Shown here in pieces: positions 17,680-21,424 of a DNA stretch of 64,000 nt (positions are counted from its first letter, which is position 1; each line of letters starts with the position of its first letter). The DNA comes from Myxococcales bacterium. GTDB taxonomy: Bacteria; Myxococcota; UBA727; GCA-2721815. The stretch covers positions 288,317 to 352,316 of the forward strand of contig PBLQ01000001.1 in assembly GCA_002721815.1 (NCBI GenBank). The letters run 5' to 3'. The notes under the pieces were generated by a model. The model was not told the origin of the DNA and did no database searches. It saw only the letters and a list, made by a program, of their open reading frames with translations. The position numbers were made by a program, and so were the translations under genes.

Positions 17680-17696
17680 ATGGCTGTCACAGCCAT
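17680..17696. promoter_or_regulatory. 17-bp near-perfect palindrome ATGGCTGTcACAGCCAT in the divergent intergenic region upstream of the secreted-paralog trio. Candidate operator.
   Basis: Arms atggctgt/acagccat are exact reverse complements around a single central c. The site lies about 125 nt upstream of the ATG at 17823 and about 185 nt from the SDR start. Confidence 0.3.
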
Positions 17697-17822
17697 GAAA
17701 ATCTCGTAAGCAACTGTTTTTACTGGGCTTAAAGTCTGGGGCGCTCACCCGTGCGCCAGCTCACACACGACATCCCGCACCCCACCGATACCTCTCCTGT
17801 CACATTTTTTAGGAGAAACATC

Positions 17823-18503
17823 ATGTCATTTAAACTTCACACCCTTGCAGCCCTTTTCATTGTCATCGGTCTCGCCACTCAGGTCAACGCCCAAAACAGC
17901 CCAAAAACTGGCGTTGAATTCTATTACTTTCCTGGTGGTAACGACAACGGCCAAACCAACTTCGATATGTCCTTTGCCATTCACGACTCAAGCATTGAAG
18001 ACGCCTACTTCAATGTTCTTTCAAACCTGAAGGTTGAGATTGAGTACCAAGCACTCAACGATCTGGAAACCATTTACCGCACCGAAAAACTCGAGCCCAA
18101 AGCTCTCAAAAGTGTGGGTGACAACCTGTTTGGCGAAATCACTTTGGCCGGTTTAAATGAAGGCACCCTCTACCGCGCTCGCGTACGTTTTTTCAACGAC
18201 AACACAGACGGGCAACCCGCACTCCTGGGCACGGCCTCCGACTGGTACTACACCGTCACTGAGGGCTCCTCCCAAGCCAGCCGCCTGCGAACCAAGCTTT
18301 TGCTTCAAGGCATCTACGAAAACCACGAAAATGTTGATCTCGAAAGCTCCTTGGGCTCCCAATACTCCACCTTGTGTGTTGAGGGTGCCACCCAAAACTG
18401 CAGCAACAACCTGCTCGAGCAACCCCAGTCTCAACATAAAGAAGCAGAGCCCCTTCACATGGATCCCGTGGTTGGCAGCTTCCAAATCAGTCAGCGGCTC
18501 TAA
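17823..18503 (+). CDS. Secreted protein, a short paralog of the downstream two genes. It shares their conserved beta-rich 'YRARV...DWYY...LLQG' module but lacks the MopE-like and putative hydrolase domains.
   Basis: RBS AGGAG at 17811-17815, ATG at 17823; the ORF caller's longer start at 17751 is GTG. Signal peptide MSFKLHTLAALFIVIGLATQVNA. GTLYRARVRFFNDNTDGQPALLGTASDWYYTVTEGSSQASRLRTKLLLQGIYENHEN aligns with TTVYRARVQFYK...SNWYYSTTDGQSSISKARTKALLQGFYQYYEGNH of the next gene. Confidence 0.75.
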   Translation: MSFKLHTLAALFIVIGLATQVNAQNSPKTGVEFYYFPGGNDNGQTNFDMSFAIHDSSIEDAYFNVLSNLKVEIEYQALNDLETIYRTEKLEPKALKSVGDNLFGEITLAGLNEGTLYRARVRFFNDNTDGQPALLGTASDWYYTVTEGSSQASRLRTKLLLQGIYENHENVDLESSLGSQYSTLCVEGATQNCSNNLLEQPQSQHKEAEPLHMDPVVGSFQISQRL

Positions 18504-18553
18504 CTGTTAACCGCCCCACTCCCAACAAATTTAATCGACCCACGAGGAACAAC

Positions 18554-19939
18554 ATGAACTGTTTAAAAACAACCCCAACGCTCTTACTGTTTTCATTCTT
18601 TTTCGCCAACGCTTCTTTCGCTGAAGATATTCTTACCTCGAAGACCGTCAAATGCTGGGAAGCAGCCATTTACGATAAAGATGGAGATGGATTTGCCAAC
18701 TCTGAAACAGGAACTGCCGATATTGCCTACATAGGAGGCGCTGAAAACCGTGAAACCTTCACGGTACTGACTGTGAGCTACAGCGAAAGTATTCCATCTG
18801 AATATGATCCTATTTTAACTCTTCTTCGTCTCGTTAGAGATCAAGATAAAATGACATGCCCCACAGGCTGGGTACGGTCGAGAGGGGACTGCAATGACGA
18901 CCCCGATGAGGGCGGCGCTGATGTGTTTCCTCGACGCAATGAAGTCTACGGCAATGGCCGGGACGACAACTGCAATGATCTGGTGGATGAGCCCGACCTC
19001 ATCTACTCGCCGAGCGGCCATAACAATCAAACCAACAAGTTTGATATTCCATTTTTCATTAATGACCCTGAGATAAAAAATGTGAAAGCGAACCCCTGGG
19101 TATCTCTTAAAGTCGAAGTCGAATACCAAAAACTTTCAAACACCAACCCTGAAACCTCATTCTCCTCCGGCTTAAAGAGCCTTAAATCATATGTGGCCTT
19201 TGGTTCAATCACATACGGAAAAGTGGAGCTGGACAATTTAGACCCCACCACTGTTTATCGTGCCCGTGTTCAATTTTATAAAACATCCCGTCGACGTGTA
19301 GGGGGTCTACCTATCAAAGTTGGCCACCCTTCGAACTGGTACTACTCCACCACCGATGGGCAATCTTCTATCAGCAAAGCCCGCACCAAAGCATTACTTC
19401 AGGGCTTTTATCAGTACTATGAAGGCAACCATCGTGGGTTAGTGGGGTATAAAGGTGCAGAAGATATAGATGGCACGCGCTACGGAGCCGATCAAGGCGA
19501 AGCATGGTGCTCAGAATTTTACAGCTGGGTCACTGATCACACTTTAGCAGGCATGGGGCACCGGAATAATGTTTCCAAAATGATGGACTATTTTAACGAG
19601 CATGATGCTGGTATTTATAACCCCACCAACTACCAAGTAAAAAACAAGATTAAACGCGGTGATTACCTCGGTGAAGACACCACAGGTGATGATGACAAGA
19701 ACCACTCTGCCATGTTCTTGGATTACGACACCTACCGCAATGTCATTTGGACCTTAGATGGCAACTCGGTCGGTTACAACGAAGAACCTGGCCTGGATAT
19801 CAGAAGTCGTGCGGCAGGCAATGAGGCAACCATTCGCGTGCGGCCAGTCACTTATGAAGTTAAGGACGAAGATGACGTTGTCACCACCTACTCAACCGTT
19901 CGCTACTGGGGACGCTTCGGCAAGAGCCCCCTTAAATAA
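18554..19939 (+). CDS. Secreted protein with a MopE-like Cys-rich putative metal-binding motif, the conserved family module, and a C-terminal putative papain-fold (CHAP/NlpC-P60-like) Cys-His hydrolase domain
   Basis: RBS gagga at 18544-18548, ATG at 18554. Signal peptide MNCLKTTPTLLLFSFFFANASFA. MTCPTGWVRSRGDCNDDPDEGGADVFPRRNEVYGNGRDDNCNDLVDEPD is MopE-like. C-terminal GADQGEAWCSEFYSWV (candidate nucleophile Cys), then ...KNHSAMFLDYD (His), then ...WTLDGNS (polar third residue). Spacing matches the CHAP/NlpC Cys-His-(Asn/Glu/Asp) layout. Confidence 0.6.
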   Translation: MNCLKTTPTLLLFSFFFANASFAEDILTSKTVKCWEAAIYDKDGDGFANSETGTADIAYIGGAENRETFTVLTVSYSESIPSEYDPILTLLRLVRDQDKMTCPTGWVRSRGDCNDDPDEGGADVFPRRNEVYGNGRDDNCNDLVDEPDLIYSPSGHNNQTNKFDIPFFINDPEIKNVKANPWVSLKVEVEYQKLSNTNPETSFSSGLKSLKSYVAFGSITYGKVELDNLDPTTVYRARVQFYKTSRRRVGGLPIKVGHPSNWYYSTTDGQSSISKARTKALLQGFYQYYEGNHRGLVGYKGAEDIDGTRYGADQGEAWCSEFYSWVTDHTLAGMGHRNNVSKMMDYFNEHDAGIYNPTNYQVKNKIKRGDYLGEDTTGDDDKNHSAMFLDYDTYRNVIWTLDGNSVGYNEEPGLDIRSRAAGNEATIRVRPVTYEVKDEDDVVTTYSTVRYWGRFGKSPLK

Positions 19940-19951
19940 ATCCCGCCGCTC

Positions 19952-19979
19952 AAGAAGGCCTCACTTTCGAGGCCTTCTT
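19952..19979 (+). terminator. Candidate intrinsic terminator hairpin downstream of the 18554..19939 gene
   Basis: aagaaggcctc-actttc-gaggccttctt: an 11-bp perfect stem with a 6-nt loop, beginning 13 nt after the TAA stop. The T-tract is weak (tt within the stem, then g). Confidence 0.45.
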
Positions 19980-20005
19980 GCTCATTGATCACCTCCACCT
20001 TTGGG

Positions 20006-21424
20006 ATGAAACACATGGCTAAAACATCTTTCAAATCTTTTTACCTCACAGTCGCTGTGCTCTTTCTTGGGGCCCCCTCAGTGGCTTTGGCCGACTGCTA
20101 CGACCGAGGTGACTGCGAAACCATTAACTGTTGGAATGCGGCTGAATTCGATAAAGATGGCGATGGTTACGCTTATGTGGGGTACGCTTACAGTGAATAT
20201 ATTGATGACGGTTTCGGTGATGATTTTGCTGACTTGGGCGATCGAGAGACATTCACCATCATCGAAAACGATGAACTGCCAGGTTGGACAGATTATGGTT
20301 TGTCTTTTTTTCGACTGGTTCGCCGTAAAGATCGCATGACCTGCCCCACCGGCTGGGTCAAAGCCCGCGGTGATTGTAATGACAACGATCCTCATATTCA
20401 CCCGCGCCAATTTGAAGTGCCTTACAATGCGATTGATGACAACTGTAACGGTCTCCAAGATGAGCCCAGCTTTGTCTACAACCCTTCGGGGAACCACAAC
20501 CGGTCCACTGGCTTTGACATGGGCTTTACGGTGAACGACCAAGAGGTGGTCGATGCCATCGAATCACCACTCGTGACCGTAAGAGTCAAAATTACCTACC
20601 AAGACCTTAAAGACACTTCAGCATCACGCACCCAGACCAAAAGTATCAAAAATTATTATTCTTACTGGGGTGATTATAAATATGCAGAGGTCGCACTCAG
20701 CCATCGCACGGCGGTTCGCCCCAACACCGTGTACCGCGCTCGTGTGCAGTTTGAAAAGCGATGGGTCTTCGACACGTCTACCTATACCAACGTGGGTGCC
20801 CCGTCAGACTGGTACTACACCACCACCACCGGATACGGCAAAGTGAATGAAGCAAGAAACCAAATTGTTCTGAAAGCTTTTCACCAATTCTACGAGAGCA
20901 ACCACCACAGTATCATTGGCTACCAGGGCAGCCATAATAAAGATGGAATACGCTATGGTGCAGATGAAGGAGAAAACTGGTGTGCAGAATTTTATGCCTG
21001 GGTAACCCAGTCCATTTTAAACGGAATGGGCCACTCACAGTACGTGAGCGATCTGAGGGCCTATTTCAGTGGCAAACGCGGTGAGATTCTGAACCCCACG
21101 AACAGCCAAATTCAAACCCGCATCAAGCCTGGTGACTTTATTGGTATCGCCACCGATAAATCAGACCCCAATAAAGCCACCCATGCCTCTCTGTTTTTGG
21201 CCTACGACAGTCATTTGGATGCCGTTTGGACCTTGGACGGGAATACCCACGGCTTCAATGAAACGCCAGACATCAATGATAAGAAAAGTCGGCGGGCAAG
21301 CAATGAAGTGTCCGTCCGGGTGCGTGGACTCGATTTTGAATACGATGAACTTGAGGATGGCACCCCGGTTACCACGCCCCTGATCAAAACTTGGGGTAAA
21401 ATCAAATACAATATGGTGAAATAA
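20006..21424 (+). CDS. Secreted paralog of 18554..19939 with a MopE-like Cys-rich motif and a C-terminal putative CHAP/NlpC-like Cys-His hydrolase domain
   Basis: ATG at 20006; the ORF caller's start at 19985 is TTG and lies inside or just after the terminator hairpin. Signal peptide MKHMAKTSFKSFYLTVAVLFLGAPSVALA. MTCPTGWVKARGDCNDNDPHIHPRQFEVPYNAIDDNCNGLQDEP; NTVYRARVQFEK; SDWYYTTTTG. GADEGENWCAEFYAWV...KATHASLFLAYD...WTLDGNTHG matches the neighbour's putative catalytic triad. Confidence 0.6.
   Translation: MKHMAKTSFKSFYLTVAVLFLGAPSVALADCYDRGDCETINCWNAAEFDKDGDGYAYVGYAYSEYIDDGFGDDFADLGDRETFTIIENDELPGWTDYGLSFFRLVRRKDRMTCPTGWVKARGDCNDNDPHIHPRQFEVPYNAIDDNCNGLQDEPSFVYNPSGNHNRSTGFDMGFTVNDQEVVDAIESPLVTVRVKITYQDLKDTSASRTQTKSIKNYYSYWGDYKYAEVALSHRTAVRPNTVYRARVQFEKRWVFDTSTYTNVGAPSDWYYTTTTGYGKVNEARNQIVLKAFHQFYESNHHSIIGYQGSHNKDGIRYGADEGENWCAEFYAWVTQSILNGMGHSQYVSDLRAYFSGKRGEILNPTNSQIQTRIKPGDFIGIATDKSDPNKATHASLFLAYDSHLDAVWTLDGNTHGFNETPDINDKKSRRASNEVSVRVRGLDFEYDELEDGTPVTTPLIKTWGKIKYNMVK

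What the first reader, a model, noticed from the sequence alone, without database searches (positions are those of the whole stretch)
17680..21424. Tandem trio of secreted paralogs: MopE-like Cys motif plus a putative CHAP/NlpC-like Cys-His hydrolase, preceded by a truncated paralog lacking both
Genes 18554..19939 and 20006..21424 share three blocks. The first is a 2x CxxxxxxxDCND...DDNCN(G/D)LxDEP putative metal-binding motif. The second is a conserved beta-rich core (TVYRARVQF, (S/N)(D/N)WYY(S/T)TT(D/T)G, LLQGFYQYYEGNH). The third is a C-terminal segment with an invariant Cys in WC(S/A)EFY(S/A)WV, a His about 75 aa later (HSAMFL / HASLFL) and a conserved WTLDGN. Order and spacing of these three residues recall papain-fold CHAP/NlpC-P60 amidases and peptidases. 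The first gene (17823..18503) has only the shared core and a signal peptide, so it could be a non-catalytic decoy, chaperone or inhibitor. A 17-bp palindrome (ATGGCTGTcACAGCCAT) sits in the promoter region. Secreted cell-wall hydrolases are plausible predation weapons, and the downstream glycosyltransferase pair may modify them.
Basis: partly seen in the sequence, partly recalled or inferred. Interest (0 to 1): 0.6.

Follow-up and report, generated by a model that had tools for sequence, protein, structure and literature searches.

The report
Secreted CHAP/NlpC-like cell-wall hydrolase paralogs
Three neighbouring genes of a marine myxobacterium-like genome encode secreted paralogs. Two of them end in a previously unnamed relative of the cysteine enzymes that phages and bacteria use to cut bacterial cell walls, so this is a plausible but fairly ordinary bacteriolytic enzyme set.

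Summary
Genes A (17823-18503), B (18554-19939) and C (20006-21424) are real paralogs. B and C are 42% identical (E 1e-119). A shares only the central beta-rich core.

B and C have four parts:
- a signal peptide;
- a Cys-rich DGDGY + PF11617 (MopE-type) metal-binding module;
- an FN3-like beta-sandwich;
- a 190-aa C-terminal domain that no Pfam or NCBIfam model recognises.

The C-terminal domain folds with confidence (pLDDT 88) as a papain-like domain. Its best structural matches are phage CHAP and NlpC/P60 proteins (Foldseek E 1e-6). It aligns to a Streptomyces phage lysin A with Cys, His and E-G-N in register (hhalign 96%). Half of the family members hit PHROG endolysin families.

The catalytic residues are almost invariant in 145 homologs: Cys 144, His 143, Glu/Asp 131, Asn 145. 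The 'GD' hallmark of the NlpC/P60-CHAP-amidase cluster is also present. Most domains contain a single Cys, so it cannot form a disulfide within the domain.

Gene A is a conserved short protein, not a pseudogene. The 17-bp palindrome is at chance level, and only its GTGA-N6-TCACA core is conserved. The link to the glycosyltransferases is plain synteny with one close relative. Family members come largely from predatory lineages.

Verdict: a new sequence family of a known enzyme kind, of moderate interest.

The parts
17677..17696 (.). Upstream inverted repeat. It overlaps the conserved core GTGA-N6-TCACA at 17677-17691, which resembles a CRP/FNR-type half-site arrangement.
   Evidence: The repeat is confirmed. 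The perfect palindrome is not conserved in orthologous upstream regions, but GTGA-N6-TCACA is conserved in all three lineages. The palindrome itself is at chance level. The core occurs once in the window, which 45% of shuffles also reach.
17784..17822 (+). Highly conserved non-coding block CACCGATACCTCTCCTGTCACATTTTTTAGGAG, including the ribosome-binding site of gene A.
   Evidence: It is nearly invariant between the window, L009/L010 and L007. There is no Rfam match. A predicted RBS hairpin has no covariation support.
17823..18503 (+). Gene A, 226 aa: signal peptide, FN3-like core (aa ~30-150), conserved helix SRLRTKLLLQGIYENHE (aa ~151-169), and a unique tail with two conserved Cys (C185, C193). 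It has no MopE motif and no catalytic domain.
   Evidence: Short orthologs of 220-239 aa at 60-75% identity are found, and one is followed by a B-like gene.
18554..19939 (+). Gene B, 461 aa: signal peptide (aa 1-24), DGDGF + PF11617 module (aa ~30-147), FN3-like domain (aa ~148-270), and papain-like C-terminal domain (aa ~271-461). The putative catalytic residues are Cys319, His384, Asp402 and Asn404.
19508..19765 (+). Gene B catalytic core, from the Cys319 codon (19508-19510) through the His384 codon (19703-19705) to the Asp402/Asn404 codons (19757-19765).
19951..19980 (+). Hairpin between B and C with a 12-bp stem. It looks like a terminator or an mRNA stabiliser but lacks a clean U tract.
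   Evidence: Free energy is -23.1 kcal/mol and z is -3.6 against shuffles. Sequence.
20006..21424 (+). Gene C, 472 aa: signal peptide (aa 1-29), Cys-rich DGDGY + PF11617 module (aa ~30-153), FN3-like domain (aa ~155-273), and papain-like C-terminal domain (aa 274-472). The putative catalytic residues are Cys326, His393, Asp411 and Asn413.
20372..20464 (+). PF11617 (Cu-binding_MopE) putative metal-binding motif of gene C, aa 123-153.
   Evidence: Pfam gives 42.1 bits, E 1e-10. The family profile hits MopE structure 2vov at E 7e-4.
20981..21244 (+). Gene C catalytic core: Cys326 codon (20981-20983), the GD motif (G376-D377), His393 codon (21182-21184), and Asp411/Asn413 codons (21236-21244).
21482..24155 (+). 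Downstream context: two polytopic, GT-C-like putative glycosyltransferases (383 aa at 21482-22633 and 506 aa at 22635-24155). They are on the same strand with short gaps, so they may be co-transcribed.
   Evidence: There are weak NCBIfam hits. The ortholog carries PF04188 Mannosyl_trans2. Homologs lie next to a family member only in L007.

Best explanation
B and C are Sec-exported modular enzymes. Each has three parts after the signal peptide.

1. A disulfide-rich N-terminal module carries a DxDGDGY loop and one PF11617 'MopE-type' motif. This module probably binds Ca2+ or another metal and stabilises the protein outside the cell (inferred).
2. An FN3-like beta-sandwich probably acts as a spacer or binding domain (inferred).
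3. A C-terminal papain-fold domain belongs to the NlpC/P60-CHAP-amidase cluster.

In the C-terminal domain, a Cys at the N-terminus of a helix is the proposed nucleophile (C319 in B, C326 in C). A His at the start of a beta-strand would act as the base (H384, H393). The Asp/Glu-x-Asn on the neighbouring strand would orient the His, as in the CHAP Cys-His-Glu-Asn relay.

The most likely substrate is peptidoglycan, at an amide or peptide bond of the stem peptide. The enzymes would then be extracellular bacteriolytic tools of a probably predatory marine bacterium. The substrate and the biological role are inferred, not shown.

B and C are old duplicates (42% identity) and may differ in substrate preference.

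Gene A is a conserved, secreted, non-catalytic paralog that keeps the FN3-like core and the first helix of the hydrolase domain. Its role is unknown. It could be an accessory binding protein or a regulator of B and C.

Shown here: paralogy, domain architecture, fold class, the conserved catalytic constellation, and homology to a phage lysin.
For: Paralogy is shown.

AF2 models are confident: pLDDT 87.7 for the full length and 88.2 for the C-terminal domain. In the domain model the Cys is the first residue of helix 55-64, the His is the first residue of strand 122-130, and D140/N142 sit at the end of strand 135-143.

Fold and sequence matches for the C-terminal domain:
- Foldseek against BFVD gives 16 hits at E<=1e-3. 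The top hits are nearly all CHAP or NlpC/P60 phage proteins (E 1e-6, TM 0.54-0.60).
- Foldseek against PDB gives weaker but consistent hits to NlpC1/2, LysIME-EF1, CD630_03720, SAV0400 and the phi812 CHAP domain.
- hhalign of the family against Streptomyces phage Euratis lysin A gives probability 95.9% and E 6.5e-9, with WC..F..WV, H and EGN aligned.
- PHROG endolysin families are hit by 12, 8 and 6 of 26 members, with best E 2e-6. The matches span the Cys-to-EGN core.
- Weak Pfam hits go to Amidase_6 in 4 of 26 members and to DUF2272 for the phage lysin. PMC10318531 places both families in the NlpC/P60-CHAP-amidase cluster and links them to the T6SS peptidoglycan amidases Tae3 and Tse1.

Conservation in 145 homologs: Cys 144, His 143, E/D 131, G-N 145, and the 'GD' motif 130/138. 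PMC10318531 names 'GD' as the hallmark of that cluster. 117 of 145 domains have one Cys only.

Of 17 loci found in GTDB species genomes, 8 are from Bdellovibrionota, Oligoflexia or Bradymonadia and 3 from Lysobacterales or Rhodanobacteraceae.
Against: - The Pfam CHAP and NLPC_P60 HMMs do not hit any of 81 scanned members.
- hhalign against LysK-type CHAP fails.
- No classical cell-wall-binding domain (LysM, SH3b, PG_binding) is present.
- The distance between Cys and His in the model could not be measured, because the tools do not return coordinates.
- The NlpC/P60-CHAP superfamily also contains enzymes that do not act on peptidoglycan, such as glutathionylspermidine amidase and acyltransferases.
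- Predation by the source organism is not established. The enrichment in predatory lineages rests on 17 loci found with a single peptide pattern.
Confidence: 0.62

Rival explanations
1. The C-terminal domain is an active papain-fold Cys-His enzyme, but its substrate is not peptidoglycan. It could instead act on a small-molecule amide (as glutathionylspermidine amidase does), on a lipid or acyl group (as LRAT-type NlpC/P60 enzymes do), or on a protein (as a protease or transglutaminase).
For: The superfamily is functionally diverse (PMC10318531). No peptidoglycan-binding module was found. FN3 and MopE-type modules are not specific to cell-wall enzymes.
Against: The closest detectable relatives are all lytic enzymes: phage lysin A, PHROG endolysin families, and CHAP or NlpC/P60 phage proteins. 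The weak Pfam hits go to Amidase_6 and DUF2272, which PMC10318531 links to the peptidoglycan amidases Tae3 and Tse1. The proteins are exported.
Confidence: 0.18
2. B and C are housekeeping autolysins used for the cell's own wall remodelling or daughter-cell separation. They are not weapons against other bacteria.
For: Many bacterial CHAP and NlpC/P60 proteins are autolysins (PMC6403190). Homologs elsewhere are single-copy with unrelated neighbours. No secretion-system or toxin-immunity context was seen.
Against: The family is rare: about 666 representative clusters at 50% identity among 1.84 billion, and 17 of 185,579 species genomes by pattern scan. It is patchy in distribution and concentrated in predatory lineages, which is not what a core cell-division enzyme would show. 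There is lineage-specific duplication into three paralogs.
Confidence: 0.15
3. Gene A is an immunity or inhibitor-like partner. It would be a periplasmic paralog whose conserved FN3 core and helix dock onto B and C and keep them inactive until export, protecting the producer.
For: A is conserved as a short gene at 60-75% identity, with the helix SRLRTKLLLQGIYENHE invariant. It sits directly upstream of a B-like gene in a second lineage. Peptidoglycan-hydrolase weapons often come with cognate immunity genes (general knowledge of T6SS Tae/Tai pairs and of Bdellovibrio Bd3459/Bd3460).
Against: No interaction data exist. All other family members examined lack an A-like neighbour, so the enzymes do not generally need one. 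A could just as well be an independent binding protein.
Confidence: 0.12
4. The proteins are non-enzymatic metal-binding or adhesion proteins of the MopE type, with the conserved Cys and His acting as metal ligands.
For: The PF11617 motif is present, MopE structure 2vov is hit, and the proteins are annotated 'putative metal-binding motif-containing protein'.
Against: [quoted passage not shown] The conserved Cys, His, E/D-x-N and GD lie in a separate domain at the canonical catalytic positions of a papain-like fold.
Confidence: 0.04

Closest known systems
CHAP domain peptidoglycan hydrolases (Pfam PF05257, MEROPS C51), for example phage K LysK, LysGH15 and S. saprophyticus 2K3A
   Same: They share the papain-like fold. 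[quoted passage not shown] As in bacterial CHAP proteins, the domain is at the C-terminus (PMC6403190). The top structural hits are CHAP proteins.
   Different: There is no match to the PF05257 HMM, and hhalign to a LysK-type alignment fails. The motif around the Cys (W-C-S/A-E-F-Y) is distinct. A long N-terminal helix and the G-Y-x-G...DGTRYGA segment precede the Cys. The accessory modules are PF11617 + FN3 rather than SH3b, LysM or an amidase domain.
Actinophage lysin A N-terminal domain (Streptomyces phage Euratis gp19) and PHROG endolysin families 21357, 9589 and 21825
   Same: Homology is detectable at the sequence level. hhalign gives 95.9% probability with Cys, His and EGN aligned, and HMM hits reach E 2e-6.
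   Different: Those are phage endolysins that act from inside the cell with holins. The proteins here are chromosomal, carry signal peptides and have different accessory domains. Identity is only about 20%.
T6SS peptidoglycan amidase effectors and related Pfam families Amidase_6 (PF12671, Tae3) and DUF2272 (PF10030, Tse1), in the NlpC/P60-CHAP-amidase cluster II of PMC10318531
   Same: They belong to the same structural cluster and share the 'GD' motif on the strand before the catalytic His. Weak HMM hits connect them. Their use against other bacteria is a plausible parallel.
   Different: All hits are below the Pfam thresholds (best E 0.011). Export here is by Sec signal peptide and not by T6SS. 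No adjacent immunity gene of a known type is present.
MopE/CorA copper-binding proteins of methanotrophs (PF11617 motif, PDB 2vov)
   Same: They share the roughly 30-aa Cys/Asp-rich motif.
   Different: Only the short motif is shared. The rest of MopE is unrelated, and PF11617 is not specific for MopE function (PMC6189053).
Fibronectin type III domains
   Same: The central domain has the same beta-sandwich fold. Foldseek PDB gives E 9e-4, probability 1.0 and TM 0.68 to FN3 scaffolds.
   Different: The Pfam fn3 HMM is below threshold (E 0.014 for A; 5 of 34 members, best E 0.0036). The domain has extra strands and a helix.

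Membership tests
NlpC/P60-CHAP-amidase cluster of papain-like enzymes (Pfam clan Peptidase_CA; cluster II of PMC10318531) | Papain-like alpha+beta fold, with the nucleophile at the N-terminus of a helix and the His on a beta-strand | tested here: met
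   In the AF2 model (pLDDT 88.2) the Cys is the first residue of helix 55-64 and the His is the first residue of strand 122-130. Foldseek BFVD gives 16 hits at E<=1e-3, with the top hits nearly all CHAP or NlpC/P60. PDB hits are consistent but weak.
NlpC/P60-CHAP-amidase cluster of papain-like enzymes (Pfam clan Peptidase_CA; cluster II of PMC10318531) | 'GD' motif on the strand preceding the catalytic His | tested here: met
   G376-D377 of C, in (R/P)GDY(L/I), lies next to strand 107-110 of the domain model. G is present in 130 and D in 138 of 145 homologs. The feature is described in PMC10318531.
CHAP (PF05257 / IPR007921) | Cys-His-Glu-Asn catalytic relay in this order | tested here: met
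   C326, H393, D411 and N413 in C; C319, H384, D402 and N404 in B. Conservation in 145 homologs is 144, 143, 131 (E 100, D 31) and 145. The spacing of 65-67, 18 and 2 residues compares with 63, 17 and 2 in LysK. The tetrad is described in PMC6403190.
CHAP (PF05257 / IPR007921) | Significant match to the family HMM or profile | tested here: not met
   PF05257 gives no hit, at cut-offs of E<=10, E<=1 and E<=0.01. hhalign against LysK alone or against a 23-sequence LysK-type alignment gives probability 0.2% or less.
CHAP (PF05257 / IPR007921) | Cys and His side chains juxtaposed in three dimensions | not testable with these tools
   The tools do not return model coordinates or residue-level Foldseek alignments. 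Juxtaposition is inferred from the canonical positions on the secondary-structure elements.
NlpC/P60 sensu stricto (PF00877, MEROPS C40) | Cys-His-His (or Cys-His-polar) triad and an HMM match | tested here: not met
   The third position is Glu/Asp-x-Asn and not His. PF00877 does not hit. Only fold-level similarity is seen.
Phage endolysin families (PHROG 21357, 9589, 21825; actinophage lysin A) | Sequence homology across the catalytic core | tested here: met
   12, 8 and 6 of 26 members hit, with best E 2.3e-6, over about 100-125 residues spanning Cys to EGN. hhalign to Euratis lysin A gives 95.9% probability and E 6.5e-9.
Peptidoglycan hydrolase (function) | Cleavage of peptidoglycan in vitro or in a zymogram | not testable with these tools
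   This needs purified protein and muropeptide analysis.
PF11617 Cu-binding_MopE motif | HMM score above the gathering cut-off (27 bits) | tested here: met
   C scores 42.1 bits. B scores 13.6 bits, below the cut-off because of an insertion, but it aligns column by column with C. 32 of 34 family members hit. The profile hits MopE structure 2vov at E 7e-4.
Fibronectin type III (PF00041) | FN3 beta-sandwich fold and an HMM match | tested here: inconclusive
   The fold criterion is met: Foldseek PDB E 9e-4, probability 1.0. The HMM is below threshold: 16 bits against a cut-off of 25 for A, and 5 of 34 members with best E 0.0036.

The most novel reading that the evidence does not exclude
The PF11617-FN3-amidase family would be a dedicated class of exported lytic enzymes of predatory bacteria (Bdellovibrionota, Bradymonadia, marine Myxococcota-like lineages, Lysobacterales). 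In this clade, the conserved non-catalytic paralog A would act as a paralog-derived inhibitor or immunity factor that keeps B and C silent in the producer's periplasm. That would be self-protection by a truncated copy of the weapon itself.
Probability: 0.1. Interest if true: 0.6.

Novelty: new member of a known kind. Interest (0 to 1): 0.38.

Why it matters
If B and C are active, this adds an unnamed sequence family to the catalogue of cysteine peptidoglycan amidases and peptidases. The family comprises about 666 representative clusters (at 50% identity), and every member examined is annotated 'hypothetical' or 'metal-binding motif protein'.

Three points give it some wider interest:
- It has an accessory architecture not described for such enzymes.
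- Its distribution leans towards predatory bacteria known only from metagenomes.
- Exported lysins that act from outside are candidates for enzybiotics.

It does not change any concept. The fold, the catalytic relay and the likely chemistry are all known.

Tried and rejected
- **Full-length model search.** Foldseek with the full-length model found only FN3 hits. A separate model of the C-terminal domain was needed.
- **PDB sequence searches.** The single sequence and the two family profiles gave nothing for the C-terminal domain.
- **LysK comparisons.** hhalign against LysK CHAP alone, and against a LysK-type alignment made from the third homolog search, showed no similarity.
- **Phage genomes.** tblastn of gene C's domain against phage genomes gave no match. 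A more phage-like family member, P0030, gave the weak hit that led to the informative hhalign.
- **Palindrome as operator.** This was rejected in that form. The palindrome has chance-level frequency and its flanks are not conserved.
- **RNA element upstream of gene A.** Rfam gave no match. A predicted hairpin that would sequester the RBS has no compensatory changes.
- **Glycosyltransferases as modifiers.** GT1 and GT2 homologs are adjacent only in the close relative L007.
- **Tandem paralogs as a family trait.** This was rejected. The other loci carry single copies.
- **Catalytic Cys in a disulfide.** This is unlikely. There is one Cys per domain in 117 of 145 homologs. Excluding the signal-peptide Cys3 of B, mature B has 5 Cys and mature C has 7, both odd numbers.

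Full report
**1. The observation**

The window carries three consecutive + strand ORFs: A (17823-18503, 226 aa), B (18554-19939, 461 aa) and C (20006-21424, 472 aa). B and C align end to end at 42% identity, E 1e-119. A aligns to B over 143 residues only, at 37% identity and E 1e-26. That stretch is the beta-rich core plus the helix that follows it.

LLQGFYQYYEGNH is B's version, and C has VLKAFHQFYESNH. The Cys-to-His distance is 65 aa in B and 67 aa in C, not about 75.

Each long protein has one PF11617 motif. C scores 42.1 bits, above the cut-off. B scores 13.6 bits, below the cut-off because of an insertion.

The N-termini look like Sec signal peptides, ending in ...TQVNA/Q, ...NASFA/E and ...SVALA/D. 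This was read from the sequence, as no predictor was available.

The source is a marine MAG deposited as 'Myxococcales bacterium' (locus tags CMH56_01050 and CMH56_01055; Tara).

**2. Anatomy of B and C**

A 34-sequence alignment and an AF2 model of C (pLDDT 87.7, pTM 0.86) show three folded parts after the signal peptide.

*N-terminal module.* It contains C-W-x-A-x-x-Y-D-x-D-G-D-G-Y-A, then T-C-P-x-G-W-V, then the PF11617 motif GDC(N/D)D...HPR..E..N..DDNC(N/D)G..DEP. A family profile hits the MopE structure 2vov over exactly this motif (E 7e-4). [quoted passage not shown] The motif therefore says 'metal/Ca-binding, disulfide-rich extracellular module' and nothing about copper biology.

*Central domain.* Residues ~155-273 of C form an FN3-like sandwich. 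Foldseek against PDB returns FN3 scaffolds and cytokine-receptor domains (E 9e-4, probability 1.0). The Pfam fn3 HMM stays below threshold.

*C-terminal domain.* About 190 residues have no Pfam, NCBIfam or PDB sequence match.

**3. The C-terminal domain**

A separate AF2 model was built from a 26-sequence alignment of this domain (pLDDT 88.2, pTM 0.87). It places the invariant Cys as the first residue of a helix. The conserved His is the first residue of a strand. The D/E-G-N motif is at the end of the next strand. This is the papain, NlpC/P60 and CHAP arrangement.

Several lines connect the domain to lytic enzymes:
- Foldseek against PDB gives weak but coherent hits: Trichomonas NlpC2 and NlpC1, the CHAP endolysin LysIME-EF1, CD630_03720, SAV0400, an S. 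aureus amidase, and the phi812 CHAP domain (E 0.02-0.3).
- Foldseek against BFVD gives 16 hits at E<=1e-3. The top hits are nearly all CHAP or NlpC/P60 phage proteins (best E 1e-6, TM 0.54-0.60).
- Three PHROG 'endolysin' families are hit by 12, 8 and 6 of 26 members (best E 2.3e-6). The matches span the Cys-to-EGN core.
- A weak tblastn hit led to Streptomyces phage Euratis lysin A. hhalign of the family against it gives 95.9% probability and E 6.5e-9. QAWCATFVSWVA aligns with ENWCAEFYAWVT, and SHTGLCIAYDADT--ITTVEGNT aligns with THASLFLAYDSHLDAVWTLDGNT.
- That lysin weakly hits DUF2272, and four family members weakly hit Amidase_6. PMC10318531 places both families in the 'NlpC/P60, CHAP and amidases' cluster of papain-like enzymes and links them to the T6SS peptidoglycan amidases Tse1 and Tae3. 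It gives a 'GD' motif on the strand before the His as the cluster's hallmark.

The family has that GD motif. G is present in 130 and D in 138 of 145 sequences.

Conservation across 145 homologous domains is close to complete:

| Residue | Conserved in (of 145) |
|---|---|
| Cys | 144 |
| His | 143 |
| Glu/Asp | 131 |
| Gly-Asn | 145 |

The order and spacing match the CHAP Cys-His-Glu-Asn relay (PMC6403190). LysK has C54, H117, E134 and N136 (read).

Because 117 of 145 domains contain only this one Cys, and B and C have odd Cys counts, a structural disulfide is unlikely.

*What is not met.* The Pfam CHAP and NLPC_P60 HMMs never hit. hhalign to LysK-type CHAP finds nothing. The domain is therefore a separate, unnamed sequence family inside the cluster. 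It is not a member of PF05257 as currently defined. I could not measure the Cys-His distance, because coordinates are not returned.

**4. Family size and distribution**

A profile search of 1.84 billion representatives found 666 proteins at E<=1e-3 and 188 at E<=1e-10. Most have the same motif-FN3-amidase architecture (35 of 47 scanned carry PF11617). Some lack the N-terminal module (P0033, P0034).

A pattern scan of one genome per GTDB species returned 17 loci, all from MAGs:
- 8 from Bdellovibrionota, Oligoflexia or Bradymonadia;
- 3 from Lysobacterales or Rhodanobacteraceae;
- 2 from Acidobacteriota;
- the remaining 4 scattered.

This is circumstantial support for a role in attacking other bacteria. 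It rests on one peptide pattern and few loci.

**5. Context**

Homologs elsewhere are single-copy with unrelated neighbours.

A close relative (L007; its protein is 66% identical to C) keeps the local synteny: kinase, periplasmic binding protein, TPR protein and SDR on the minus strand, then one full-length family member, then the two GT-C-like membrane proteins. It has only one copy. GT1 and GT2 homologs appear next to a family member nowhere else among 26 loci. The idea that they modify these proteins therefore has no comparative support.

**6. Gene A**

Gene A has full-length short orthologs of 220-239 aa at 60-75% identity. They share an invariant FN3 core, an invariant helix SRLRTKLLLQGIYENHE and two conserved tail Cys. 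In L009 and L010 the A ortholog is directly followed by a B-like gene that is 45% identical to B.

A is thus a maintained non-catalytic paralog, not debris. Its role as binding partner, inhibitor or immunity factor is open.

**7. Upstream region**

The perfect palindrome is real, but such repeats occur at the chance rate: 4 observed against 4.1 expected.

I aligned the upstream DNA of A, of its orthologs, and of the single gene in L007. The outer arms are not conserved. The core GTGA-N6-TCACA is conserved. It resembles the CRP/FNR consensus TGTGA-N6-TCACA (from general knowledge).

Other conserved blocks include CACCGATACCTCTCCTGTCACATTTTTTAGGAG, just before the start codon. There is no Rfam match, and a predicted RBS hairpin has no covariation support.

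A strong hairpin lies between B and C, with a free energy of -23.1 kcal/mol and z of -3.6.

**8. Verdict**

The most likely function is exported peptidoglycan amidase or endopeptidase activity through a Cys-His-(Glu/Asp)-Asn relay.

I rate the papain-fold hydrolase assignment at about 0.85. I rate peptidoglycan as the substrate at about 0.6.

This is a new sequence family and a new domain architecture within a well-known kind of enzyme, and it is moderately interesting.

Noticed in passing
window 19951-19980: A 12-bp GC-rich hairpin (AAGAAGGCCUC...GAGGCCUUCUU) lies between paralogs B and C. Its free energy is -23.1 kcal/mol and z is -3.6. It has no clean U tract. It could be a partial terminator or an mRNA-stability element that separates expression of B and C.
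   Followed up: partly
window 17677-17822; L009 1-312; L007 9718-10007: Non-coding blocks upstream of gene A are more conserved than the proteins. The blocks are GTGA-N6-TCACA, CGTAAG..TGTTTTT, CCGTGCGC..TCACACACG and CACCGATACC.C.CC.GTCACATTTTT.AGGAG. GTCACA recurs three times. No Rfam family matches and there is no covariation, so this is probably a protein-binding promoter or leader region.
   Followed up: partly
window 5370-11405 (+), with 38-5446 (+): A 2011-aa protein carries SpvB, TcdB_toxin_midN, FG-GAP and RHS repeats, like a Tc-toxin B/C-type shell. It is preceded by an 1802-aa ORF with no Pfam match. The relative L007 also carries RHS/TEN_YD-shell genes upstream.
   Followed up: no
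window 25341-32210 (+): A 2289-aa secreted protein combines EGF/cEGF/EGF_CA, seven Sushi (SCR) repeats and RCC1-like propellers. This is a eukaryote-like domain mix.
   Followed up: no
window 34589-45463 (-), 50634-52244 (-), 57346-60930 (+): These genes form a family of paralogous secreted proteins. Their N-terminal ASH/HYDIN-type Ig domain is followed by thrombospondin type 3 repeats and/or RCC1 repeats. Five of them sit in a row on the minus strand.
   Followed up: no
window 24272-25321 (+): A 349-aa protein has a tandem (A/G)EAKAE(A/T)G-type low-complexity repeat after its signal peptide and a C-terminal membrane segment. Overlapping frames give KPKPKLAQ repeats. It has weak hits to DUF3280 and DUF5384.
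   Followed up: no
L001 3603-5051: About 3 kb upstream of the Acidobacteriota family member P0030 lies a gene with a Gasdermin_protease Pfam hit, next to a HigB/HTH toxin-antitoxin pair. It is unrelated to the finding.
   Followed up: no
window 21482-24155 (+); L007 12168-14737: Two GT-C-like polytopic membrane proteins are conserved as a pair with the close relative, at 72% and 52% identity. One resembles PIG-V/Mannosyl_trans2 and the AZOBR_p60025 family. The other resembles the LA_3751/3752 family and has a C-terminal TPR. Their substrate is unknown.
   Followed up: partly
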